Notes under the pieces: generated by a model | Seen by the model: only the letters and a program-made list of their open reading frames with translations | The model's database searches: none | What the model was told of the DNA's origin: nothing | Virus record (IMG/VR): IMGVR_UViG_3300045926_000127 | From: an uncultured virus (IMG/VR IMGVR_UViG_3300045926_000127) | Taxonomy: Duplodnaviria; Heunggongvirae; Uroviricota; Caudoviricetes | Direction: 5' to 3' (one strand) | DNA: 64,000 nucleotides | Program-made: the position numbers and the translations under genes | Shown: positions 6,331 to 45,590 of the stretch, in pieces | Layout: each line of letters opens with the position of its first letter | Position numbering within the stretch: position 1 is the first letter of the stretch

Positions 6331-6762
6331 ATGCCGCTCGCCGTTCCAGCCTCGCCCGAATTGCAGACCGCCATTCAACGCAAGCCAGCGCACGGCAAGG
6401 CTTGCAACAATTGCGGCGCCTGTTGCCTCGCCACGCTTTGCCCGCTCGGCAAGGCGCTATTCCTCCGCGAGCGCGGCCCATGCCCGGCGCTCCTCCGCGC
6501 TGGCGCCTCCTATCAATGCGGGCTCGCCGCGCATCCGGCGCGCTTTGTGCCCGGCGCCGTCCAGCGCTTCGGCTCGACCATGCTCTCCGAGGCCGCGCGC
6601 TATCTCATCGGCGCGGGCGACGGTTGCGACGCGCGCTTCAATGGCGAGCCGAAGGACGAAGCCTTTGCGCGCGACCTCGACGCGCGCAAGCAAGGCGAGG
6701 AGCGACTGTCGCTGATCGCGCAGATCCTATGGGGCGTGCGGGGACTTGAATGGAAACGCTAG
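6331..6762 (+). CDS. Cys-rich hypothetical protein (possible Zn or Fe-S binding)
   Basis: CNNCGACC...CP...CP...C motif; AAGGAG RBS. Confidence 0.65.
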   Translation: MPLAVPASPELQTAIQRKPAHGKACNNCGACCLATLCPLGKALFLRERGPCPALLRAGASYQCGLAAHPARFVPGAVQRFGSTMLSEAARYLIGAGDGCDARFNGEPKDEAFARDLDARKQGEERLSLIAQILWGVRGLEWKR

Positions 6763-6966
6763 CGCTATGCGGAGCCGACGAGAAGCGCTGCGCGCCGACG
6801 CGGGTGCACCGCGCGATGCGAACGCCCGACGGCGGCATTCTCACCTTGGAGCCCATTGCAGCCTTTTGTGAACGCTGCGGCCGATACCGCCGCAAGAAAT
6901 TGGCGAAGCGCCGCGCGCCAGCGCTCGCCATGTTCAAACCAAACCGGCGCAAGAAGGACAGCTACC

Positions 6967-7851
6967 ATGGCAAGAAAGCTAAAGCCCGAGGCGGGCGATA
7001 CTCACACGGAAGTGCATGAGATCGCCACGAGCATGCTCGGGGTCTACCTCCTCGGCATCACACCGCTGGTGCCGCATGCAATGTCGTTCAAGAGCAAGGG
7101 ACAGTTGCTCTATCCGGCGCCCGCGAAGAATCGAGCGGAGCGGGAGACCTCGCTCAAGCACGATCCGTTCGAGGAATTCCGCGAGGCGGCGTATCGCTTT
7201 CGCGATAAGGACAAGCAGCCGACGCGGCTCTATATGCCCGCCGGTTCTTTCCACGCCGCCATGGCGTCGGCCGCACTCGATATGGTCGGCGTCAAGAAGT
7301 CTCAGATCGGTCGGCTCACCAGCGTGAGCGGCGAGAGGATCGCGGACAAAATCCCGATATTCGGCACGCCGCAAATTTGGTGCGTCTCGGTGCGCTCAAG
7401 CGACATGGCCCGCACGCCGGACATTCGGACGCTTCCGATCCTCCCGCGCTGGTGCTGCTTCATCAACGTGACGCACATCGGCTCGCTGATCTCCGAGCGC
7501 TCGATCATGAACCTCCTCGGCGCCGCCGGAGAGATCGTCGGCGTCGGCGACGGGCGACCGGAGAAAGGCAAGCTTAACAACGGCAAGTTCCGCGTGGTCG
7601 ATGCCAAGCACCCAATGGTGCAGTCGCTCATGAGAAGCGAAGCCACCAAGGCGCAGGACGCCGGGCTCGCCTCGCCGGTCTACTACGACGCCGAGACGGA
7701 AGCCTTGCTTGAGTGGTTCTCGTCCGAGCGGACCAGCCGCCACGCCAAGCAACCGCACGCGCTCAAGGCCAGCAAGTCTCGGGGCACGCCGCGAGGCAAG
7801 CCGCGCGGCAAGGGCAACGGCGCCGAGGCAGGCGAAGGCGCGCACACCTAA
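6967..7851 (+). CDS. Stand-alone RAMP/Cas7-like RNA-binding protein
   Basis: N-terminal VYLLGITPLV strand, LYMPAGSFHAAM (RAMP-like P.sSxKG.helix), C-terminal Gly-rich loop GVGDGRPEKG...GKFRVV; no cas1/cas2 or CRISPR nearby; fold call is by motif only. Confidence 0.7.
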   Translation: MARKLKPEAGDTHTEVHEIATSMLGVYLLGITPLVPHAMSFKSKGQLLYPAPAKNRAERETSLKHDPFEEFREAAYRFRDKDKQPTRLYMPAGSFHAAMASAALDMVGVKKSQIGRLTSVSGERIADKIPIFGTPQIWCVSVRSSDMARTPDIRTLPILPRWCCFINVTHIGSLISERSIMNLLGAAGEIVGVGDGRPEKGKLNNGKFRVVDAKHPMVQSLMRSEATKAQDAGLASPVYYDAETEALLEWFSSERTSRHAKQPHALKASKSRGTPRGKPRGKGNGAEAGEGAHT

Positions 7852-7934
7852 GCCCTCACACAAAATGCTGGCGGCGAGCACCGTGGGGAGCCCGCCGCCA
7901 AGCATTCACTACTCAAACTCCGAAGGAGGTAACG

Positions 7935-8414
7935 ATGTCCACTATGAAGACGAAGGTGAAGGTTTTAAGGCAAATGTTCCGCAACGGCCGGGCGACCGCC
8001 GAGCAATTGGTGCGAGAGGCTTCAAAGAAAAGCCACGAGATGCACGACGACTTCGAGTGGGACGACCGCAAGGCCGGGCACGCTTATCGAGTCGACCAAG
8101 CGCGCAAAATTATCTCGTCGGTCGAGATCATTCTCACCCAGTCGACCAAGGTCATTCGCACCGTTGCCTATGTGCGCGACCCTTCATGCGCTCCGAAGCA
8201 GCAAGGCTATATCTCGGTCGACAAATTAAAGTCGGAGCGAGCGCTCGCTGGTGAGGCGCTCGAAAATGAACTCGACCGAGTCATCGCTTGCTATGAGCGC
8301 GCCAGCGCCTTTGCTGACGCGCTCGATCTCCGCTCGCAATTCGACGCCGTGCTGCTCTCGGCGGTCGATCTCCGCTCGCTGATAAAGCGCAAGCGAAAGG
8401 TCACGCCGGAATAA
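7935..8414 (+). CDS. Conserved phage hypothetical protein between the RAMP-like gene and the array
   Basis: AAGGAGGT RBS; TAEQLV...H.DFEWDD.KA...YRVDQAR.II motif. Confidence 0.8.
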   Translation: MSTMKTKVKVLRQMFRNGRATAEQLVREASKKSHEMHDDFEWDDRKAGHAYRVDQARKIISSVEIILTQSTKVIRTVAYVRDPSCAPKQQGYISVDKLKSERALAGEALENELDRVIACYERASAFADALDLRSQFDAVLLSAVDLRSLIKRKRKVTPE

Positions 8415-8450
8415 GAAGCGAGCGGGCGCGCCTCATGTCTTCGTCGGCAA

Positions 8451-9810
8451 CCAACGCGACTGGTCAGGACAAGCCAAGCCCGGCTTGGCCGCGTCAAGTC
8501 AAGCCAAGCCCAACAAGTCGGGCCGAGCCACGCACGCCCCGTCAAGTCGCGCCACGCCTAACATGCCCGGTCGCGCCGCGCCGAGCCTTGCCCCGTCTCG
8601 TCCCGTCGAGCCAAGTCGTGTCTTGCCGAGCCTCGACTAACGCGTCCGGACTTGCCCAGCCATGTAGCGTCGCGCCCAGCCGGGCCTTGCCTTGCCACGC
8701 CCATCGAGCCGCGCTCCGTCCGGCCGTGCCCTGTCGCGCCAAGCCGAGCCATGTCGCGCCCAACGCGTCGAGTAGAGCCGTGCCGGGCCGTCGCCGGGAA
8801 AAGCTTCGCGATGCCGTGCCGCGCCCAGCCATGCCGAGCCTCGACCGACGAAGCCTTGCCCAGCCTTGTCATGCTTTGCCGTGTCAGGTTGCGCCATGCC
8901 ATGCCTCGACCAACGGGTCCGGCCGCGCCATGCTAGGCCGCGCCAAGCCGAGTCCGGACCAACGCGCTTTGCCAAGTCAGGACGAGTCCGGTCTAGCCTT
9001 GCCGGGCCTTGTCAAACGAGCCGACCCGTGTGGAGCCGGGTCAGGGCACGACGAGTGGAGCCATGCCGTGTCCAACGAGTCCGGTCCCGTCTGGCCGCGC
9101 TCTTGCTTGTGCCGAGCCATGCCAAGCCCTGTCGCGTCCAACGAGTCGGGCCGGGCCTTGCATGTTCGCGCCAAGCCAAGCCCCGCCATGTCATGCCCAA
9201 CGAGTCTTGCCGTGCCAAGCCGCGCCGCGTCCGGCCCTGCCCCGGGCCGCCCGTACCAACGCGCCGTGCCTCGCCCAGCCGCGAGGAGTGAAGCCGAGGC
9301 CAGCCGCGTCCAACAAGCCGCGCCCTGTCGAGCCGTGCCACGCGGTCCCGAGTCTAGTCCTGACCAACGCGCCAAGCCAAGCCAAGCCTCGCCTCGCGCT
9401 GTCTTGACCAACAAGCCACGCCGGGCCAAGCCGCGCCGAGCGACGCCCGGCCGGGCCGCGCCTAGACCAACGAGCCGAGCGACGCCCCGTCAGGTCGTGC
9501 CCTGTGAAGTCCCGCCAAGCCGGGCCGAGCCTCGCCAAGACCAACATGCGGTGCCGTGCGGTGCCCAGCCGCGCCACGTCTTGCCCGGCCGAGCCGGGAC
9601 CACCGTGCCGCGTCCCGCTGTGCCGCGCCCCGCCGTGTCCAACAAGACCCGCGAAGCCAAGACAAGCTGTGCGGAGCCGAGCCTTGTCATGCCATGTCCA
9701 ACGAGCCTCGCGATGCGATGCCACGCGAAGCCTTGCCGAGTCCCGCCTTGCCCAACATGCAATGTCGAGACAAGCCGTGCGGAGCCGAGCCTAGTCCTGT
9801 CCTGTCCAAC
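8451..9810 (+). repeat. Pentamer-coded array, block 1: about 23 units of CCAAC-(NN-GYC)n; candidate guide-RNA array
   Basis: CCAAC or 1-mismatch variants at 8451,8510,8558,8637,8701,8760,8845,8910,8959,9013,9072,9138,9197,9256,9310,9364,9408,9467,9541,9600,9639,9698,9752,9806; spacing mostly 5n+4. Confidence 0.9.
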
Positions 9811-9837
9811 GCGCCTATCAACCAGTGGAGAATTAAA

Positions 9838-10080
9838 ATGTCAGACGATATCGAGAAGAAGTGGACGAAGGTCGCCAGCGACTTGCTACTCAACCGCAAG
9901 ATCGTCGGCGTCAAATACATCAGTAAAAGTGAAGCGAAGTCCCTCGGCTGGTACGGGCGCTCGCTCTCGATCACACTCGACAGCGGCTTGGTCGTGTATG
10001 CGTCGCAAGACGACGAGGGCAATGGTCCCGGCGCTCTATTCACCACCGCAGAGAAGGCTAGCGTTCTGCCGGTGCTGTGA
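9838..10080 (+). CDS. 80-aa hypothetical protein embedded in the array (SQDDEGNGPGALFT motif)
   Basis: GGAG RBS, non-repetitive sequence, stop codon abuts the next CCAAC. Confidence 0.8.
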   Translation: MSDDIEKKWTKVASDLLLNRKIVGVKYISKSEAKSLGWYGRSLSITLDSGLVVYASQDDEGNGPGALFTTAEKASVLPVL

Positions 10081-10562
10081 CCAACAAGACCCGCGAAGCC
10101 ACGCCAAGCCGGGCCGAGCCAAGACCAACGCGCCATGCCAAGCCGCGCGATGTCCGGTCGTGCAATGCCGGGCCAAGCCCTGCCTCTTCCAACGGGCCGA
10201 GCCGCGCCGAGCCGAGTTGGTTGCGCCATGCCGCGTCAAGCCCAACGTGCCTGCCTTGCCGGGCCTCGACCGGTCAAGTCACGCCCAGCCGGGACCAACA
10301 GGTTGCGCCGTGCCCCGTCTCGTCCCGTCGAGCCAAGTCCAACATGCCCCGCCGTGCCCGGTTAAGCCCCGTCGGGCAACGCCCAGCCGAGCCTTGCCGT
10401 GCCCGGCCCAACGTGCCGCGTCCGGCCATGCCAAGTCAGGTCGCAGCCGAGCCCGGCCCAACTTGCCGTGCCACGCCTTGCCCGGCCGAGCCCTGTCAAG
10501 ACCAACGGCGCCGGGCCGTGCCCTGTCATGCCCTGCCCTGCCGAGACGCGTCAGGACCGCCA
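10081..10562 (+). repeat. Pentamer-coded array, block 2: about 9 units
   Basis: CCAAC at 10081,10125,10189,10242,10295,10339,10408,10458,10502; terminal CCAATG overlaps the next start codon. Confidence 0.9.
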
Positions 10563-10946
10563 ATGTCGAGAAAGCGAAAGTATGTCCGCATGCCCGAGCG
10601 GCTCGCCGCCGCTCTCGCATGCTTGCTCACGCAAGAGGAGCGCGACGCGCTTCGAGCGAGGAGAGCGCCAGCACGCGAAGTGCTCGCGCTTTTCACCTTC
10701 GATCACATCGCGCTCCATGCGTGGGGCGGATCGGATCGCTGGCACAACCTCGATCCAAAGCGCCGCGGTCTCGCGCTCAAGAAAAAAGACGCGGCCGATA
10801 CCAGCCGCGCATTCAAAGCAAAGCGCATCGAAGAAAAGTGGAGTGCGTTCACCCGCGCAATGGCGCGCGGGAAAAAACCCAAACGAAAGGACAGCCAATG
10901 GCACCGCAACAAGCGCCGCCCGAATACGCCGACGAAATACATCTAG
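10563..10946 (+). CDS. HNH-like protein (degenerate)
   Basis: FDHIALHAWGGSDRWHNLDP resembles HNH DH...GG...NL; last metal-binding His not evident. Confidence 0.6.
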   Translation: MSRKRKYVRMPERLAAALACLLTQEERDALRARRAPAREVLALFTFDHIALHAWGGSDRWHNLDPKRRGLALKKKDAADTSRAFKAKRIEEKWSAFTRAMARGKKPKRKDSQWHRNKRRPNTPTKYI

Positions 10947-11104
10947 GCGATGGACTCTACTGCGCTCTCAATATGTTCGGACAAATCCGGCTCCGCGCGC
11001 CTCGCGGCGAGGGTGACCACATTTGCTATTTGGAGCCGGAGGTTCTCGCAAGCTTCCTCGACTGGTGCATTCACAAGAACCTCATCAAAGGATTTGACCA
11101 GTGA
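10898..11104 (+). CDS. Small hypothetical protein (HLGDGLY), paralog A
   Basis: AAAGGA RBS; similar to the next ORF. Confidence 0.7.
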   Translation: MAPQQAPPEYADEIHLGDGLYCALNMFGQIRLRAPRGEGDHICYLEPEVLASFLDWCIHKNLIKGFDQ

Positions 11105-11289
11105 GCCCCAACAAACCCGACGCGGAAGTCCATCTAGGCGAAGGCGTCTATGCGTCATGGTCAGGCAATGAGTTGCGCCTGATGTGGCGGCATCGCGTCA
11201 ACAGCGCGAACCGCATCACGGTCTATATCCCGGCGAGCGGCGCGGCGATCCTCGCGGCTTGGCTTGAACTCACGCGAGGCAAGCAATGA
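11101..11289 (+). CDS. Small hypothetical protein (HLGEGVY), paralog B
   Basis: GTGA coupling; similar to previous ORF. Confidence 0.65.
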   Translation: MSPNKPDAEVHLGEGVYASWSGNELRLMWRHRVNSANRITVYIPASGAAILAAWLELTRGKQ

Positions 11290-12230
11290 TCGAAACCCTC
11301 GTATGGCATCAGGACATCGGCGCGATCTCCGCGCCGATGATCCTCAAGGACGTGCCCATTGATATCTACCATGGGCAATGTTGCGCCGGGCCGAGCGTTA
11401 GCTCCACCAACTTGCGCCGCATCTTTGAAGCGAACGGCGGCTCGCCCGCGCATTGCTTCTCCGAATGGAGCGGCAACCCGCGCAAGGCGGAGAGCGAGGA
11501 CGAGGAGCGCGAGCACTTCGTGACCGGCCGCGCTGTTCACCATTTGCTCCTCGGGCAGCAAGCCTTCTCGGCGCACTTCGCTATCCGGCCCGAGAAGCGC
11601 TGGACAAGCTGGCGCACCGACGACTCGAAGAAATGGCGCGCGGCGCAAGAGGCGGCCGGGCGCTCATGCCTCACCGAGACGGTGGTAAAGGACATTATCG
11701 GCATGGCGAAAAGCTTGGCCGCCGACCCGACCGTTCGGCGTGGCTTGCTCGGCGGCAAGATCGAGCGCTCGATATTTTGGTTCGATAAGGAGTCGGGCCT
11801 TTGGTGCAAGGTCCGCCCCGACGCCATCCCAACCGATAGCGGGGACTTCGCCGATCTCAAGACGACGACCAGCGTTCAATACGGCAACCTCGCGCGCGCT
11901 GTGCGCGAGCATGCCTACCACCAGCAAGCCGCGCTGGTGTTCGAGGCGGCGACGCTGGTGCTCGGCATTCCAGCGGCGGCCTTCTCCTTCACCTTTTGCT
12001 TCGTCGAGAAGAAGCCGCCCTACTCGGTGCGACAAGTCGCGCTCAAGGCCGAAGACCTGGCCCTCGGCGTGAAGCTAAACCGCGCCGCCCGGCTCCGCTT
12101 CGCTTCATGCTTGAAGCAAGGGCGCTGGCCCGGTCCCGGCGACGGGCACATTGTCAACATCGACCTCGGCGACCGCTATCGCGGTGAGGCCGTGAGCGCG
12201 GCCGATCAAATTTTCAGAGGAGGAGAATGA
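11286..12230 (+). CDS. recE: Exonuclease VIII/RecE-like PD-(D/E)xK nuclease (DUF3799 type)
   Basis: SSTNL, GRAVHHLLL, CKVRPD...DLKTT...YHQQAA motifs. Confidence 0.85.
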   Translation: MIETLVWHQDIGAISAPMILKDVPIDIYHGQCCAGPSVSSTNLRRIFEANGGSPAHCFSEWSGNPRKAESEDEEREHFVTGRAVHHLLLGQQAFSAHFAIRPEKRWTSWRTDDSKKWRAAQEAAGRSCLTETVVKDIIGMAKSLAADPTVRRGLLGGKIERSIFWFDKESGLWCKVRPDAIPTDSGDFADLKTTTSVQYGNLARAVREHAYHQQAALVFEAATLVLGIPAAAFSFTFCFVEKKPPYSVRQVALKAEDLALGVKLNRAARLRFASCLKQGRWPGPGDGHIVNIDLGDRYRGEAVSAADQIFRGGE

Positions 12231-12842: not shown

Positions 12843-13349
12843 ATGTCAGTTTTCCGTTGCCCGCAATGCGGGCACGAATGGCGCCAGCCGAAGGAAGGAT
12901 ACAACGGCGCGCTCAAGCCATTCCTTGAGCGGGTCGTCGCCATGGGAAAGGACGGCCGCACGCTTGACGAGATCACCGACTATCTCATGAAGCGCGACGC
13001 CGACCTTTTCCTCTCGCAAGATTACGAGACGATCAGCAGCAATAGGCAGCGGATCAAGGCCGCCGCTCGGCAAGCGCTTCGTTCTCATGGCATCGCCATT
13101 CCGCAAGGGGTCGCCAACGATGTGCGGCGGGAGAAGGCGCGTGCGCGCCGAGCGCTCATTGTGCAACAGCATGACGAGCAAGGGATGCTGTTCAAGGAGA
13201 TCGCGCAAGTGCTCGGCATTTGCACGCAGCGGGCGCACCAGCTTTACCGACTCGAAAAGCGCATCAGGGACGAGCGTCATGGACCAGCACCGCAAGCGGC
13301 TAAAGGATTCGCCACCACCAGCAAGGAAGAGGAAGACGACAATGACTGA
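12843..13349 (+). CDS. Putative DNA-binding protein with C-terminal sigma-4-like HTH
   Basis: GMLFKEIAQVLGICTQRAHQL; strong RBS. Confidence 0.6.
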   Translation: MSVFRCPQCGHEWRQPKEGYNGALKPFLERVVAMGKDGRTLDEITDYLMKRDADLFLSQDYETISSNRQRIKAAARQALRSHGIAIPQGVANDVRREKARARRALIVQQHDEQGMLFKEIAQVLGICTQRAHQLYRLEKRIRDERHGPAPQAAKGFATTSKEEEDDND

Positions 13350-14472
13350 CGAACACACTACCGACCATACGCCTGTCACCCGCCGCGACTTGCACGAGCA
13401 AAATATCGACAAGGTATTTCCCGAGCGCTCGCGCGGCGATCTCGTGCGCGTCGAGCATGGCAAGCTTGAGTTTGCCAACATGACGGAAATGATGAACGCC
13501 GCGAAAATGTTGAGCATGGCGACCGTCACCTTGCCGCAATGGCTGCGCGGAAACCCCGGCGACTGCTTCGTCATTCTCGGCAAGGCTTTGCACTGGGGTT
13601 TCGAGATCAGCGCGGTCGCCAGCCAAATTTACAAGACCGTCAGCAAGTCGGGCGTCGAGCGCATCGAGCACCAAGCGCAACTGGTGAATGCGCTGATCCT
13701 CTCGCGCGCCAAGCTGGCGCGGCGCCCGCGCTATATGTTCAGCGGCGAAGGCGAGAGCCGCCGCTGCACATGCACCGTCTACATTCGCGGCGAGGAGAAG
13801 CCGTTCGTCTATGAGTCGCCGCCGATCTCGCAGATCTCGCCAAAGAACTCGCCGCTATGGGCGACCGATCCGGACCAGCAACTCGCCTACTATTCCATCC
13901 GAGCGTGGGCAAAGCGCCATTCACCCGAGACGCTCATGGGCGTCAACAGCGCCGACGATATCGTGGAGAACGAGCCGCTCTCCGCGCCCGCGCCGCTCGC
14001 GCTCGCCGAGCCCACGGCGGCGCTCCATCAGCGGCTAGAGCAAGCCGCCGCCGCCAGCAATGGGGAGCCCGGCGAAGGCTTCTCCGAGTCCGCCATTGAG
14101 GAGGCCGTGCGCGAGGCCAGTGGCGTAAATGCCACAGCGCCCGGCGGGCCAGCGGAGCCCGCTGGTGAGCCGGAGCCGGGAGGGGATAGCCGAGGCCAGC
14201 CCGAGCCGGAAAAGCGCACGGGCGCCCGCCCGGCCGCGAAGGCGAAGGCGGCCAAGGCGGAGAAACCCCCCAAGGAAAGGCCGCTGCCGACCAGCCCCAC
14301 GGAATACCGCAAATGGGTCGCGGGCTGGCTCCGCGAATATGACGACGAGGCCAAGATCGCGGAGCGCTGGCGCACGGAGCGGCGGCTCCGCAATGCTTGC
14401 GGGCTGATCGAAGAGGACCGCGAGAAGGTGCGCGCCTTGGTCGACAACCGCATCGCCGACATTCGCCGCTAG
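13342..14472 (+). CDS. recT: RecT-family single-strand annealing protein
   Basis: LRGNPGDC...W...AVA...QLVNA...SPLW..DPDQQLAY...RAWA.RH.PE..MG motifs; close to RecE. Confidence 0.85.
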   Translation: MTDEHTTDHTPVTRRDLHEQNIDKVFPERSRGDLVRVEHGKLEFANMTEMMNAAKMLSMATVTLPQWLRGNPGDCFVILGKALHWGFEISAVASQIYKTVSKSGVERIEHQAQLVNALILSRAKLARRPRYMFSGEGESRRCTCTVYIRGEEKPFVYESPPISQISPKNSPLWATDPDQQLAYYSIRAWAKRHSPETLMGVNSADDIVENEPLSAPAPLALAEPTAALHQRLEQAAAASNGEPGEGFSESAIEEAVREASGVNATAPGGPAEPAGEPEPGGDSRGQPEPEKRTGARPAAKAKAAKAEKPPKERPLPTSPTEYRKWVAGWLREYDDEAKIAERWRTERRLRNACGLIEEDREKVRALVDNRIADIRR

Positions 14473-32922: not shown

Positions 32923-33572
32923 GCCAACCCCCATCGTTCGAGCGCCTCGGGCACGCTGATTTTCGGATATGCGGTGACGGTGCTTATCGGGGAGCAATTG
33001 ACCACATCGACACCCATGCGCGCAAGCTTCGGCGCGACGCCATTGAGCGCGCCGCGCCAGCGCATGAAATTTGATTCGTCCGGGTTGGTGCAAGGCGGGA
33101 GGTGCCGCCCGTGCCAATGCTGGCCGCCGAAGTCGAAGCCGATGAGGAGCACGCCGCTACAGCCCATTTGCACCGCAAGGTTCACCATCTGAAAGCCGCC
33201 GTTGCCGCCAGAGCCGACCTTGCCGAACTTCTCGGTGAGGATGTCGTCGCTTTTCGGCACGACCTCGATGCCGACGATCTCGGGCCAATAGGTCGTTGCC
33301 AGCACGTCTTGCGATATCCTCACGCCGCCGAAATCCGTCGCACCGCGATAGAGCAGCCACCAATTGTAGTCGCACGCATAGAGCATGTCGGCCCATGGGC
33401 AAAGGTGGACCGCATTGTTGATGGCGATCACATGGATGCGATCTCGCAACAGGGAGAGGTCAACTCCCTTCGCCGAGGCGCCGCTCCCCACCACCGCCAC
33501 GCACTCTCCCGGCCAGCGCGGGAGATCATCTCTGCTTCGCCCGGTTTGTAACTCTAGTGCTTTGTCGAGCAT
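32919..33572 (-). CDS. MptE/DUF115-like (sialyltransferase-like Rossmann) protein
   Basis: VAVVGSGAS...IAINNA...YACD..WW...GGNGGFQ.VNLA...G...LIGFD. Confidence 0.6.
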   Translation of the reverse strand: MLDKALELQTGRSRDDLPRWPGECVAVVGSGASAKGVDLSLLRDRIHVIAINNAVHLCPWADMLYACDYNWWLLYRGATDFGGVRISQDVLATTYWPEIVGIEVVPKSDDILTEKFGKVGSGGNGGFQMVNLAVQMGCSGVLLIGFDFGGQHWHGRHLPPCTNPDESNFMRWRGALNGVAPKLARMGVDVVNCSPISTVTAYPKISVPEALERWGLA

Positions 33573-37443: not shown

Positions 37444-37856
37444 GTGTAGCAGATCGCTTCGAGGTCGAGTGCTCTAGGTCTATTCCAAGTCTGGCGTGAT
37501 CGCCACGCGCGAATGGCCTCCCGCTTTTCAGGATCGTTGCTGCTCTCGTTGGCCTTGACGAATTCCTCGACCGCGATCTCGCCGAGGCGGATCACGAACG
37601 GGATATCATTCCACGCGATAGGCTCATGCACGCGCTTGTCGATGCCGGGCACAAGGCAGAGAAACTCACCCGCGCGCACATGATGCTTGAAGCGGCTTCG
37701 ATGCGTCACCACCACTCGCACGCCGCCATAGCTGTCGAGGATTCCGCCGATCCGGCTCGGCTTCGGATCGCGCTGAATGCAACGCTGGTTTCCGCCGCCC
37801 TTGCACTCGACCTTTCCCTCGCATGCGGGACAGTCGGGGCGAAAGCGCATGTTCAT
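37440..37856 (-). CDS. Hypothetical protein
   Basis: Coupled ORF with N-terminal Cys cluster. Confidence 0.6.
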   Translation of the reverse strand: MNMRFRPDCPACEGKVECKGGGNQRCIQRDPKPSRIGGILDSYGGVRVVVTHRSRFKHHVRAGEFLCLVPGIDKRVHEPIAWNDIPFVIRLGEIAVEEFVKANESSNDPEKREAIRAWRSRQTWNRPRALDLEAICYT

Positions 37857-43980: not shown

Positions 43981-44574
43981 TTACGCCATCGACAATTCAA
44001 CCCGCTTCGGCCGCAGCAATTGCTCGGCGTTCCACGGTAGCTGCCCCGCGATCGTTCCGACCACCACGCTCTCGCGATGCGAATACAGCGACCCGGTCAT
44101 CAGGAGGATCGCCGCTTTGATATCCTCCGGGACCGACGCGACTGGCGGCGAGTCGCCACTGATGTAGCCCGCGACATAGCGGATGCGAACCGCGTTGACC
44201 ACATCGCGCGTAGGCGGCCACTCTCCGCCAACCGCCACCACCCAGCCCGGCTCGTTCGCGGTATCGACCACATAGTCGGTGTTCTCCGTGAGCAATTGCT
44301 CGGCCCCGCTCGGCTCGTCGGCATAGAGCACGCTCATGACATATTGCAGCGGCGGGCGCGGGATGAAAATTTGCGGCTTGAACTCATCGAGCACAAGCTC
44401 GAGCGTTTGCGTGATGAAGGCCCGGCCGGTGAACTCCTCCGCATGCTTGGTCGCCGCCGCGAGGTAAGTCGAGATCAGCGCGTCCTCGTCGTCATGGTCG
44501 ACTCGCAAATGCGCCTTGGCCTCCGCCAGCGTGAGCGGGAGAGTCGCGGGAGGAGTGATCACACGCACCGCCAT
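43981..44574 (-). CDS. Head-tail connector (HK97 gp6-like)
   Basis: PLTLAEAKAHLRVDHDDED.LI...AILL....Y.HRE. Confidence 0.9.
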   Translation of the reverse strand: MAVRVITPPATLPLTLAEAKAHLRVDHDDEDALISTYLAAATKHAEEFTGRAFITQTLELVLDEFKPQIFIPRPPLQYVMSVLYADEPSGAEQLLTENTDYVVDTANEPGWVVAVGGEWPPTRDVVNAVRIRYVAGYISGDSPPVASVPEDIKAAILLMTGSLYSHRESVVVGTIAGQLPWNAEQLLRPKRVELSMA

Positions 44575-45590
44575 TAGCGCGCATCCTTGCCCGGCGCTCC
44601 GCGCTCGCCAGCCCGGCCGTCCTTGCCATCCTTGCCGTCGCGCCCGCGCTTCACCGCCAGCCGCCAGTCCTTGTTGGTTTCGGGATAAGCCTTGGTGTCG
44701 CGCTGCGCGATCCAGAAGGAGCCGCCGAACGAGACAATGTCGCCGCGCTGATAAAGCCGCCCGCCCTCATAGACGCCGCGCTCGATAGGCACTGGGAAAT
44801 TGAACGCGAACTCCTTGCGCCGCTCGCCGCGAATGAAAATAAACTTGAACGCGCGCTCACCATCATACTCGGCCTCGAATTCGTCGAAGCCGAACCCATC
44901 CTCGCCGCGAGCACCGGGCGCGCCGTCCTTGCCGTCGCGACCGGGCAGGCCCGGCAAGCCGTCGCGGCCATCTTTGCCATGCGCGCCGTCAAGACCCGGC
45001 AAGCCGCAAGCGCCGGGCAAGCCCTGTGGTCCCATTTCGCCGGGCGGGCCTTGCTCGCCGGGAGCGCCGGGAGCGCCGGGAGCGCCGGGCGCTCCTTGCG
45101 GGCCGGGAGCACCATCGGCGCCGGGCGCGCCAACCGCGCCTTGCACGCCCAGCGCACCGCGCTCTCCTTGCGGGCCTTGCTCCCCGCGCTCTCCTTGCGG
45201 GCCGCTCGCTCCTTGCTCGCCCTTCTCGCCCCTGATGCCATCCCAGCCGGGTTCACCCTTCTCGCCGCGCTCGCCCTTCTCGCCGCGCTCGCCGGGCGGG
45301 CCGGGCAAGCCTTGCAAGCCTTGCGCGCCAGCCGAGCCGAAAGGCCCCGGCGGGCCTTGCACGCCATCCATGCCGGGCTCCCCGCGCTCGCCGGGCTGGC
45401 CTTGCGGGCCAGCCTCGCCTTGCGGGCCGGGCGGGCCTTGCTCGCCGCGCTCCGGCGCCGGGCGCTTCTCAAGCGCTTCGAGGCGCACGAGGATCGGCGC
45501 GGCAATGCGCTCGACCGCGGCCTCGACGAATTTGTGAATGACCGGCGCGATGCCAGCCATCAACGCCGAGACCTCGCGGTGCTTCATCAT
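44574..45590 (-). CDS. Collagen-like protein
   Basis: About 60 uninterrupted Gly-X-Y triplets; C-terminal GD.V.FGGS.WIA...WRLAVKRGRDGKD. Confidence 0.85.
   Translation of the reverse strand: MMKHREVSALMAGIAPVIHKFVEAAVERIAAPILVRLEALEKRPAPERGEQGPPGPQGEAGPQGQPGERGEPGMDGVQGPPGPFGSAGAQGLQGLPGPPGERGEKGERGEKGEPGWDGIRGEKGEQGASGPQGERGEQGPQGERGALGVQGAVGAPGADGAPGPQGAPGAPGAPGAPGEQGPPGEMGPQGLPGACGLPGLDGAHGKDGRDGLPGLPGRDGKDGAPGARGEDGFGFDEFEAEYDGERAFKFIFIRGERRKEFAFNFPVPIERGVYEGGRLYQRGDIVSFGGSFWIAQRDTKAYPETNKDWRLAVKRGRDGKDGKDGRAGERGAPGKDAR

What the first reader, a model, noticed from the sequence alone, without database searches (positions are those of the whole stretch)
8451..10562. Two-level array grammar: CCAAC boundary, 5-nt NN-GYC period, unit lengths quantised at 5n+4
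Hand-measured boundary spacings are 59,48,79,64,59,85,65,49,54,59,66,59,59,54,54,44,59,74,59,39,59,54,54 in block 1 and 44,64,53,53,44,69,50,44,58 in block 2; 24 of 32 are exactly 5n+4. Example unit at 9408: CCAAC aa GCC ac GCC gg GCC aa GCC gc GCC ga GCG ac GCC cg GCC gg GCC gc GCC ta GA|CCAAC. The first G of the triplet is nearly invariant while NN varies freely, and I saw no two identical units. A simple microsatellite would homogenise; phase conservation with free NN suggests selection on information content.
Basis: seen in the sequence. Interest (0 to 1): 0.9.

Follow-up and report, generated by a model that had tools for sequence, protein, structure and literature searches.

The report
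Phage VIPR guide-RNA array, variant repeat
The five-base repeat array is a bank of about thirty guide RNAs for a phage-encoded, CRISPR-like DNA-silencing system (VIPR) first described in 2026, here in a sub-branch that has changed the fixed part of each repeat.

Summary
Window 8451-9810 and 10081-10562 are runs of NN-GYC pentamers punctuated by CCAAC. Lag-5 identity is 0.51 against 0.25 in controls, and 17 of 25 exact CCAAC spacings are 5n+4 (p=2.7e-7).

It is not a new kind of element. It is the guide-RNA (vrRNA) array of a VIPR system (bioRxiv 10.64898/2026.04.26.720920). The gene just upstream (6964-7851) folds as a Cas7/Csm3-like RAMP, followed by a conserved accessory gene (7935-8414). 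Of 85 loci encoding relatives of that protein, 81 carry pentamer arrays beside it. The 5n+4 rule is the preprint's "staggered array with 1-nt overlap". Each run of C-NN-G-Y pentamers ends in CCAAC, whose last C starts the next run.

The NN pairs behave as guide code:
- They mirror codon positions 1-2 of coding strands (r=0.88).
- Guide 9408 matches 11 of 11 NN, in frame, in Sak4-like phage ATPase genes.

What differs from the published type:
- The fixed triplet is G-Y-C, not GGY.
- The Vipr protein has lost both residues (R138, W178) that hold the second G in the published structure.
- There is no folded tail.

This scan has reported VIPR loci on other DNA before.

The parts
6964..7851 (+). 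vipr gene: Cas7/Csm3-like RAMP protein, 295 aa (phrog_4652)
   Evidence: PHROG hit. Start set from the translation and homologue alignment. AF2 model pLDDT 84.5. Foldseek PDB: 61 hits at E<=0.001, led by Csm3/Cmr4/Cas7 chains. Keeps the equivalents of H17, D177 and R179 of the published Vipr but has L for R138 and G for W178.
7935..8414 (+). vap-like accessory gene, 159 aa (phrog_15946)
   Evidence: PHROG hit. tblastn finds a homologue on the vipr strand in 70 of 85 Vipr loci. AF2 pLDDT 87.5. No PDB fold match at E<=0.001; only weak winged-helix-like rows.
8451..9810 (+). vrRNA array block 1: about 23 guide units of C-NN-G-Y pentamers, each ending in CCAAC
   Evidence: A contig from an RNA library covers 8445-8626.
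9408..9471 (+). guide unit with 11 NN (AA AC GG AA GC GA AC CG GG GC TA)
   Evidence: Read with one skipped base it matches 11 of 11 NN, in frame and coding sense, in Sak4-like AAA_24 ATPase genes of three viral contigs and two bacterial genomes. The best of 20 shuffles scored 16 of 22 on the same records.
9838..10080 (+). small ORF (80 aa, GGAG ribosome-binding site upstream) separating the two array blocks; function unknown
   Evidence: Of the 29 viral loci that encode a relative, 28 are other contigs and none of those has a pentamer array; the 29th is the window's own contig. No Pfam or PHROG family.
10081..10562 (+). vrRNA array block 2: about 9 guide units
   Evidence: A contig from an RNA library covers 10179-10350.
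10125..10193 (+). guide unit with 12 NN
   Evidence: 11 of 12 and 10 of 12 NN, in frame, in an 86-aa protein of two viral contigs.
10339..10412 (+). guide unit with 13 NN
   Evidence: 12 of 13 NN, in frame, in a 250-aa protein on a metagenome contig.

Best explanation
Window 6964-10562 is a VIPR (Viral Interference Programmable Repeat) locus of a soil phage. It holds a vipr gene, a vap-like gene and two blocks of a 'staggered' vrRNA array.

Inferred by homology to the published type II system: the + strand is transcribed and cut into roughly 45-75-nt guides. One Vipr protomer binds each pentamer, burying the fixed triplet and presenting the two variable bases. The filament then pairs those NN with double-stranded DNA that reads NN-x-NN-x. 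The skipped base falls on the codon wobble position, so genes of competing phages are silenced.

Shown here:
- the array grammar;
- the RAMP fold of the neighbouring protein;
- the array-gene association across relatives;
- the codon-like composition of NN;
- in-frame matches of three guides to phage genes;
- a fixed triplet of G-Y-C, in step with loss of the two Vipr residues that hold the second G in the published structure.

Not shown: transcription strand and RNA ends, binding, and silencing.
For: 1. Protein. The model of 6964-7851 (pLDDT 84.5) matches Csm3/Cmr4/Cas7 chains (best E 2.3e-6; 61 hits at E<=0.001). The family (phrog_4652) includes the Felixounavirus VpaE1 protein (tblastn E 7e-4). 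That protein carries H17, K33, E71-M72, R138 and D177-W178-R179 exactly as numbered in the structure preprint, and sits among GGT-NN guides with tails.

2. Association. 81 of 85 loci encoding relatives have period-5 arrays within about 1.5 kb. 70 of 85 have the vap-like gene on the same strand. Independent contigs L031, L034, L038 and L042, and phages Florinda and Pipp, show the same pairing.

3. Strand. The nearest relatives, L051 (57% identity) and L052-55 (52%), have NN-GAC pentamers with the same GACCAAC punctuation on the vipr-sense strand.

4. Code. The 328 NN correlate r=0.88 with codon positions 1-2 (sense) of 23 window genes, against 0.24 antisense, -0.08 and 0.18 for the other registers, and 0.28 for genome dinucleotides. 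Pooled arrays of 71 relatives give 0.88 sense against 0.37 antisense.

5. Targets. Guide 9408 scores 11 of 11 NN in frame in Sak4-like genes. In bacterial genomes 2 of 36 seed hits extend to 22 of 22, both in that family, against 0 of 37 for the pattern read backwards. Guides 10125 and 10339 reach 11 of 12 and 12 of 13 in frame.

6. Unit size is 9-15 pentamers; the preprint gives 9-16. The 1-nt overlap matches the legend of its fig. S18.

7. Covariation. The fraction of G at triplet position 2 has median 0.83 with R138+W178 (46 loci) and 0.65 with R+G (11 loci). With L+G it is 0.00-0.05 (3 loci, the window among them).

8. Contigs from two soil RNA libraries cover only array stretches of 8300-10700.
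Against: - No direct RNA ends or strand. The RNA-library records are assembled contigs and may derive from DNA.
- No sigma-70-like promoter was found on the + strand in 6500-11500.
- The triplet is not GGY. In the published type II system GGY>GAY abolished silencing.
- No 3' tail or other Rfam family is present.
- Two of five guides tried gave nothing convincing. Guide 9467 had 0 hits in metagenome contigs, 4 genomes and 401 genomes of one order. Guide 9197 had only out-of-frame 9 of 11 hits.
- The 9-NN seed of guide 9408 is at chance level in bacterial genomes (36 hits against 37 for the control). Only its full-length matches stand out.
- No second guide hits the five viral records that guide 9408 hits.
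- The three L+G loci form one sub-branch, so the covariation may rest on a single evolutionary event.
- The VIPR type (I-VII) could not be assigned. Figures are not held and bioRxiv supplements are closed.
Confidence: 0.9

Rival explanations
1. It is a VIPR array, but the guides are made from the minus strand, where the pentamers read GRC-NN (55% GGC) and so lie closer to the published GGY. The array would then be inverted relative to vipr.
For: On the minus strand 55% of triplets are GGC. In most relatives the vipr-sense strand reads GGY. No + strand promoter was found.
Against: The nearest relatives carry the same CCAAC-punctuated NN-GAC grammar on the vipr-sense strand. The + strand NN read like sense codons, as do the vipr-sense NN of 71 relatives. 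Loss of the G2-holding residues predicts exactly a G-N-C triplet on the + strand.
Confidence: 0.04
2. The array works as DNA: iterons, a centromere-like site or a replication origin bound by the neighbouring protein, with no RNA involved.
For: It is a dense array of short directed repeats beside a conserved protein gene, close to recombination genes (RecE-like 11286-12230, RecT-like 13087-14472).
Against: The protein has an RNA-binding RAMP fold. Homologous systems yield small RNAs that co-purify with the protein (preprint Results). The variable positions carry codon-like information and match foreign genes, which iterons would not.
Confidence: 0.03
3. The region is translated. The 889-aa open frame 8435-11104 would encode a repetitive protein, as annotators assumed for the equivalent arrays of phages Florinda (gp59) and Pipp (gene 43).
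For: There are no stops in that frame over block 1, against 6 and 8 in the other two + frames. ORFs are annotated over the arrays in GenBank.
Against: The period is 5, not 3. Lag-3 identity is 0.17-0.30, at or below background. GC is 0.69 at all three codon positions. In this grammar a stop can arise only from NN=TA, so open frames come for free. The frame also runs through the separately framed ORF 9838-10080. Pfam finds nothing.
Confidence: 0.01
4. It is a non-functional expanded pentanucleotide microsatellite.
For: Tandem Repeats Finder reports local period-5, 10, 15, 20 and 25 rows.
Against: Units are not homogenised; NN carries under 0.2 bits of information. The array is conserved in place beside vipr in 81 of 85 loci. 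NN are codon-like and guides match phage genes.
Confidence: 0.01

Closest known systems
VIPR systems with 'staggered' vrRNA arrays (bioRxiv 10.64898/2026.04.26.720920; text, Methods and the legend of fig. S18 read; figures not held)
   Same: A Vipr RAMP gene plus accessory gene in a phage. Guides are tandem pentamers with a fixed triplet and a free NN, 9-16 per guide. Neighbouring guides overlap by 1 nt, which gives the 5n+4 unit length. Targets are read with one skipped base at the wobble position.
   Different: The fixed triplet is G-Y-C (GCC 55%, GTC 21%, GAC 7%), not GGY. Every guide ends in the invariant pentamer CCAAC, whereas the GGY-type staggered arrays seen here use a GGCA four-base step. 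Whether the preprint's 'YNNNG' class covers this consensus could not be checked.
Type II VIPR of Escherichia phage SUSP1 and the Pseudomonas fulva prophage, and the like locus of Felixounavirus VpaE1 read here
   Same: Homologous Vipr with the same G-loop motif G-x-G-D-x-R-P. The residues that read G1 and Y3 are kept. A vap gene lies next to vipr, and guides lie upstream and/or downstream.
   Different: Type II guides are separate RNAs of about 100 nt with a roughly 40-nt structured tail and strict GGY. The window has no tail, about 32 head-to-tail guides over 1.85 kb, L for R138 and G for W178, and a Vipr about 100 aa longer at the C-terminus.
Class 1 CRISPR-Cas backbone (Cas7/Csm3/Cmr4 filament on crRNA)
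   Same: The same RAMP fold, with one protomer per fixed stretch of guide and periodic base flipping (structure preprint).
   Different: No CRISPR repeat-spacer array, no cas1/cas2 or other cas genes. The period is 5 nt with 2 read bases, not 6 nt with 5. The target is double-stranded DNA that is silenced rather than cut.
TRAP (trp RNA-binding attenuation protein) binding sites, (G/U)AG triplets with 2-3-nt spacers (recalled, not from a call)
   Same: A 5-nt period with a fixed triplet and a free dinucleotide, about 11 repeats per unit, bound by an oligomer with one subunit per repeat.
   Different: In TRAP sites the spacers carry no information and the protein fold is unrelated. This early working analogy was dropped once the RAMP fold and the targets were found.

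Membership tests
VIPR system | A Vipr protein: a minimal RAMP (RRM core, glycine-rich loop, thumb) | tested here: met
   AF2 pLDDT 84.5. Foldseek PDB best hits are Csm3/Cmr4/Cas7, with 61 at E<=0.001. The G-loop GVGDGRP aligns with GVGDWRP of Felixounavirus Vipr.
VIPR system | Guide region of tandem pentamers, a conserved triplet alternating with a hypervariable NN (GGY/NN 'or a related consensus'), 9-16 per guide | tested here: met
   343 pentamers. Information is 1.7/0.7-0.8/1.2-1.4 bits at the triplet against 0.01-0.16 at NN. The 17 clean units have 9-15 pentamers. The consensus is G-Y-C, a related one.
VIPR system | Adjacent accessory (vap) gene | tested here: met
   7935-8414 is conserved next to vipr on the same strand in 70 of 85 loci. 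Which of vap1-6 it is could not be told; the fold search was inconclusive.
VIPR system | NN specify targets read with a 1-nt skip, mostly in coding sequence with the skip at the wobble position | tested here: met
   NN against codon positions 1-2 gives r=0.88. Of 5 guides tried, 3 gave in-frame matches: 11 of 11, 11 of 12 and 12 of 13 NN. 2 of 5 gave nothing. The reversed-pattern control gave no full match.
VIPR system | vrRNAs are expressed and bound by Vipr, and the complex silences its target | not testable with these tools
   Only a weak hint: contigs from two soil RNA libraries cover 8445-8626 and 10179-10350 and nothing else of 8300-10700.
VIPR, staggered-array architecture | Successive vrRNAs overlap by 1 nt | tested here: met
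   Read from the shared C through the next CCAAC, 17 of 23 units are exact multiples of 5. 17 of 25 CCAAC spacings are 5n+4.
VIPR type II (SUSP1-like) | Strict GGY triplet read by H17/D177 (G1), R138/W178 (G2) and R179 (Y3) | tested here: not met
   G at triplet position 2 in 1% of triplets. R138 is L and W178 is G, while H17, D177 and R179 are kept.
VIPR type II (SUSP1-like) | A roughly 40-nt invariant, structured 3' tail after each repeat tract | tested here: not met
   Units follow one another directly. The only invariant element is CCAAC. Rfam finds nothing.
CRISPR-Cas | Repeat-spacer array with adaptation and effector cas genes | tested here: not met
   No repeat-spacer structure. The neighbours are phage genes with no cas families.

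The most novel reading that the evidence does not exclude
This sub-branch (the window, L051, L052-55) has rewritten the fixed half of the VIPR code. Vipr lost both residues that cradle the second G (R138 to L, W178 to G), and the guides correspondingly read G-N-C/NN. Each guide is closed by a bare invariant pentamer, CCAAC, in place of a folded tail, which would make these the most compact VIPR guides. In this whole Vipr clade the guides read almost only as the coding strand of their targets (r=0.88 against 0.24-0.37). That bias could reflect how guides arise or which strand must be bound. If the preprints' unseen figures and data do not already show these points, they are a natural protein-RNA specificity switch and a clue to guide origin.
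Probability: 0.4. Interest if true: 0.6.

Novelty: new member of a known kind. Interest (0 to 1): 0.42.

Why it matters
VIPR is a months-old discovery: RNA-guided DNA silencing with a gapped code, proposed as a forerunner of CRISPR.

This locus adds a large natural example, about 32 guides in 1.85 kb, from an uncultured soil phage. It offers three usable points:
- A natural experiment on how the fixed triplet is read. G2 recognition was lost in protein and RNA together, which could guide engineering of orthogonal Vipr/guide pairs.
- A tail-less, CCAAC-closed guide format, relevant to how arrays are processed.
- Predicted targets (a Sak4-like recombination ATPase motif, a terminase N-terminus) that fit inter-phage conflict.

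It also shows that database genes called over such arrays (Florinda gp59, Pipp gene 43) are probably not genes.

Tried and rejected
- **Early ideas dropped.** These were a TRAP-like protein-binding RNA, Chi-like or exonuclease-blocking sites, a G-quadruplex or R-loop origin, and a centromere. All were abandoned after the RAMP fold and the preprint.
- **'Inverted array' reading.** I held this after and rejected it on the nearest relatives.
- **Rfam.** Nothing at E<=1 in 7500-11500.
- **Whole genome.** None is held for this window.
- **Close relatives of Vipr in genome contigs by single protein.** None found; the alignment query worked.
- **Self-targeting.** The best 1-nt-skip matches of 17 guides in the window plus 1.1 Mb of loci were no better than shuffles: mean 0.787 against 0.776.
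- **Target scans with no hit.** Guide 10339 with 10 NN in viral contigs. Guide 9467 with 11 NN in metagenome contigs, then in full with up to 3 mismatches in 4 genomes and 401 genomes of the order of a Rhizobium that carries a related prophage.
- **Guide 9197.** 8 viral loci, 9 of 11 NN, out of frame with stops, judged chance.
- **Nearest virus record G001.** A 29-kb fragment that lacks the vipr region, so no orthologous array could be compared.
- **vap fold.** No PDB match at E<=0.001.
- **Promoter scan.** No + strand site.
- **Parts of 8300-10700 without cover in RNA-library contigs.** No conclusion drawn.
Full report
**Observation**

The stretch 8451-10562 consists of two blocks, 8451-9810 and 10081-10562, separated by a small + strand ORF (9838-10080).

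- Identity at lag 5 is 0.51 and 0.50 in the two blocks, against 0.25-0.26 in two control stretches. Lags 10, 15 and 20 decay slowly from there.
- In 200-nt sliding windows the region scores 0.45-0.55, against a window-wide mean of 0.27 (sd 0.05). The only other stretch above 0.38 is 45151-45500. Read by eye, that stretch is a Gly-X-Y-type repeat on the minus strand and is unrelated.
- CCAAC occurs 27 times in the region and 47 times in the other 62 kb. GTTGG occurs once in the region.
- Of 25 exact CCAAC spacings, 17 are 5n+4 (p=2.7e-7).
- A phase-tracking parse gives 343 five-base steps and 33 four-base steps. Of the four-base steps, 23 are CAAC and most of the rest are TAAC, AAAC, CACC or CATC.
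- Information content is 1.70-1.75 bits at G, 0.70-0.82 at Y and 1.16-1.41 at C, against 0.01-0.16 at the two N positions.
- No two units are identical. Three stretches of 19-29 nt are shared between units.

**A simpler statement of the grammar**

Read in the register C-NN-G-Y, each unit is a run of 9-15 pentamers whose last pentamer is the invariant CCAAC. The final C of CCAAC is also the first C of the next run. Read this way, 17 of 23 units are exact multiples of five. A 1-nt overlap between neighbours is what makes the period 5n-1, that is 5(n-1)+4.

**Not coding, not a known RNA family**

- The 889-aa frame 8435-11104 is open (no stops in that frame over block 1, against 6 and 8 in the other two + frames).
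- The sequence has no three-base periodicity, and GC is 0.69 at all three codon positions.
- In this grammar only NN=TA can create a stop, so open frames arise for free.
- Rfam gives nothing at E<=1.

**Context**

The window is a phage.

- Terminase, portal, major head, tape measure and tail-fibre genes lie on the minus strand.
- A + strand block at 2.7-15 kb holds an AAA ATPase, a RecE-like exonuclease and a RecT-like protein.
- Capsid relatives at 43-45% identity lie in Rhizobium and Rhizobiaceae genomes.
- The stretch is held by 22 soil metagenome runs.

**The linked gene**

A scan of viral contigs for the array grammar found similar arrays in other phages: L032 and L038 (overlapping stretches), L034, L040, and L042 with at least 4 kb of array.

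- Next to the arrays in L031, L034, L038 and L042 lies a gene of one family, phrog_4652.
- The window's 6964-7851 belongs to the same family.
- Mycobacterium phage Florinda and Gordonia phage Pipp have the same pairing. Their arrays are annotated as hypothetical proteins gp59 and gene 43.
- The protein has 224 homologues in the large protein collection; the 120 listed carry either no name or only 'hypothetical protein'.
- Its AlphaFold model (pLDDT 84.5) matches Csm3, Cmr4 and other Cas7-type RAMP chains (best E 2.3e-6; 61 hits at E<=0.001).

**Identification**

A full-text search found bioRxiv 10.64898/2026.04.26.720920. I read its abstract, Results, Discussion, one Methods section and passages with figure legends; the figures themselves are not held. 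It describes:

- VIPR systems: a Vipr RAMP protein, an accessory vap gene, and vrRNAs of 9-16 YNNGG (GGY/NN) pentamers;
- NN pairs that specify double-stranded DNA targets read with one skipped base, usually the codon wobble position;
- seven types;
- 'staggered arrays with overlapping vrRNAs', with 1-nt overlaps according to the legend of fig. S18;
- alternative consensus repeats (NNNGG, YNNNG, NNNNG).

I also read the abstract and two Results sections of the companion structure preprint, 10.64898/2026.04.26.720927. It shows one protomer per repeat. G1 is read by H17 and D177. G2 is held between R138 and W178. Y3 sits in a pocket with R179.

Of a third preprint, 10.64898/2026.10.15.759431, I saw only the abstract and outline.

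**Tests of membership made here**

1. *Association.* Of 85 loci encoding relatives of the window's Vipr (5 from genomes, 80 from viral contigs, one of them the window's own contig), 81 have a period-5 array within about 1.5 kb. A homologue of the window's 7935-8414 lies on the vipr strand in 70 of 85.

2. *Strand.*
   - In almost all relatives the vipr-sense strand reads GGY-NN.
   - The window reads NN-GYC on that strand, which at first looked like an inverted array.
   - The nearest relatives, L051 (57% identity) and L052-55 (52%), settle it. Their vipr-sense strand reads NN-GAC with the same GACCAAC punctuation.
   - The sub-branch therefore uses G-N-C/NN, and the window's guides lie on the + strand.

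3. *Code.*
   - The 328 NN pairs of the array correlate r=0.88 with the frequencies of codon positions 1-2 (sense) in 23 window genes.
   - The correlation is 0.24 for the antisense reading, -0.08 and 0.18 for the other two registers, and 0.28 for all dinucleotides of the window.
   - Pooled GGY arrays of 71 distinct relatives (4450 NN) give 0.88 sense against 0.37 antisense, with sense higher in 58 of 71 loci.

4. *Targets.* Collection scans accept only exact patterns, so I searched 9-11 consecutive NN of five guides and scored the rest of each guide on the hits.
   - Guide 9408 in viral contigs: 10 loci, all in frame and in coding sense. Three loci match 11 of 11 NN with different wobble bases. 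They lie in a Sak4-like AAA_24 ATPase (phrog_124 E 7e-43; PF13479 E 3.5e-37), at a motif reading KTGKADTRGAY. Further loci match 10 of 11 in terminase large-subunit N-termini.
   - Guide 9408 on five whole records: it scores 22 of 22, against at most 16 for 20 shuffles. None of the other 28 guides exceeds its shuffles there.
   - Guide 9408 in bacterial genomes: the 9-NN seed alone is at chance level (36 hits; 37 for the pattern read backwards). Two forward hits extend to 22 of 22, both in the same Sak4-like family. No control hit does.
   - Guide 10125: 11 of 12 and 10 of 12 NN, in frame, in an 86-aa protein of two viral contigs. These were the only two hits.
   - Guide 10339: 12 of 13 NN, in frame, in a 250-aa protein on a metagenome contig, among 8 hits. 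An earlier scan of viral contigs with its first 10 NN found nothing.
   - Guide 9467: no hit anywhere tried.
   - Guide 9197: only out-of-frame 9 of 11 hits.
   - No self-target stands out in the window.

5. *Expression.* Contigs from two soil RNA libraries cover 8445-8626 and 10179-10350 and nothing else of 8300-10700. This is a weak hint only, because contigs show neither strand nor ends and DNA can be present in such libraries.

**What differs from the published type II**

- The triplet is GCC in 55%, GTC in 21% and GAC in 7% of pentamers. G at the middle position is 1%.
- There is no roughly 40-nt tail. CCAAC is the only invariant element.
- Felixounavirus VpaE1, read for comparison, has the classic layout of GGT-NN guides with tails. 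Its Vipr carries H17, K33, E71-M72, R138 and D177-W178-R179 at exactly the published numbers.
- Aligned to it, the window's Vipr keeps H, D and R at 17, 177 and 179 but has L at 138 and G at 178, as do L051 and L055.

Across 60 distinct loci the fraction of G at the middle triplet position follows these two residues:

| Residues at 138 / 178 | Loci | G at triplet position 2 |
|---|---|---|
| R / W | 46 | median 0.83 |
| R / G | 11 | median 0.65 |
| L / G | 3 | 0.00-0.05 |

So the RNA stopped conserving G2 where the protein lost the residues that hold it. The three L/G loci form one sub-branch, so this may rest on a single evolutionary event.

**Mechanism**

What follows is inferred from the preprints, not shown here.

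- The + strand is transcribed with or after vipr and vap.
- It is divided into 45-75-nt guides at or near CCAAC.
- Vipr protomers coat each guide at one per pentamer, hiding G-N-C and exposing NN.
- The filament pairs with DNA reading NN-x-NN-x and blocks transcription of genes of rival phages or other mobile elements.
- The window's phage carries RecE/RecT-type recombination genes, while guide 9408 matches Sak4-type genes. That fits a non-self target.

**Limits**

- The VIPR type (I-VII) and the identity of the vap could not be assigned. The vap model (pLDDT 87.5) had no PDB match at E<=0.001.
- I could not see figs S17 and S18 or the data files of the preprint. They may already show this consensus and clade.
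- Only 5 of about 32 guides were searched, and only with exact seeds.

**Earlier notes of this scan**

Earlier notes report VIPR loci on other DNA, including GY-NNN staggered arrays and an xGC-type consensus. I did not test those notes.

**Verdict**

The kind is already known, and this is a new member with a variant fixed triplet and a tail-less guide format.

Noticed in passing
window 44574-45590 (- strand), esp. 45150-45500: The only other stretch with raised lag-5 identity (0.38-0.45). Read by eye it is a collagen-like Gly-X-Y repeat (GGGCC/TTGC-type 9-nt units) inside a minus-strand structural gene next to the portal gene. It is unrelated to the array.
   Followed up: partly
window 9838-10080 (+): An 80-aa ORF with a GGAG ribosome-binding site sits between the two guide blocks. 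Relatives occur in 28 other viral contigs, none with pentamer arrays nearby. It has no Pfam or PHROG family. It may be an inserted passenger gene or a further accessory gene.
   Followed up: partly
L043 (Mycobacterium phage Florinda, record 37484-37734) and L044 (Gordonia phage Pipp, record about 33060-33380): GGC-NN guide arrays next to phrog_4652 genes are annotated in GenBank as protein-coding 'hypothetical proteins' (Florinda gp59, Pipp gene 43). These are probably mis-annotated vrRNA arrays in well-studied actinophage clusters.
   Followed up: partly
L042:1-4000: A viral contig of 114 kb carries at least 4 kb of uninterrupted NN-GCC pentamers with about 120 four-base (mostly TGCC) steps, that is on the order of a hundred guides. 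The array runs to the start of the stretch that was fetched, so it may be longer.
   Followed up: no
window 8435-11104 (+): An 889-aa open frame spans both array blocks and merges with the real gene 10565-11104. It is an artefact of the stop-poor pentamer composition and would mislead gene callers.
   Followed up: yes
window 9639-9697 and 9752-9805; 9639 and 10081: Pairs of guides share shifted or partial NN strings (for example ..AA GT GA GA T. in both 9639 and 9752; an identical first 21 nt at 9639 and 10081). They look like guides against overlapping sites or alleles of one target gene.
   Followed up: no
L033:2680-3060: The array-pattern scan also picked up a CCAGCCAACCA-type simple repeat in another viral contig. 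It has no free NN positions and no adjacent Vipr gene seen in the stretch, so it is probably an ordinary microsatellite and not VIPR.
   Followed up: no
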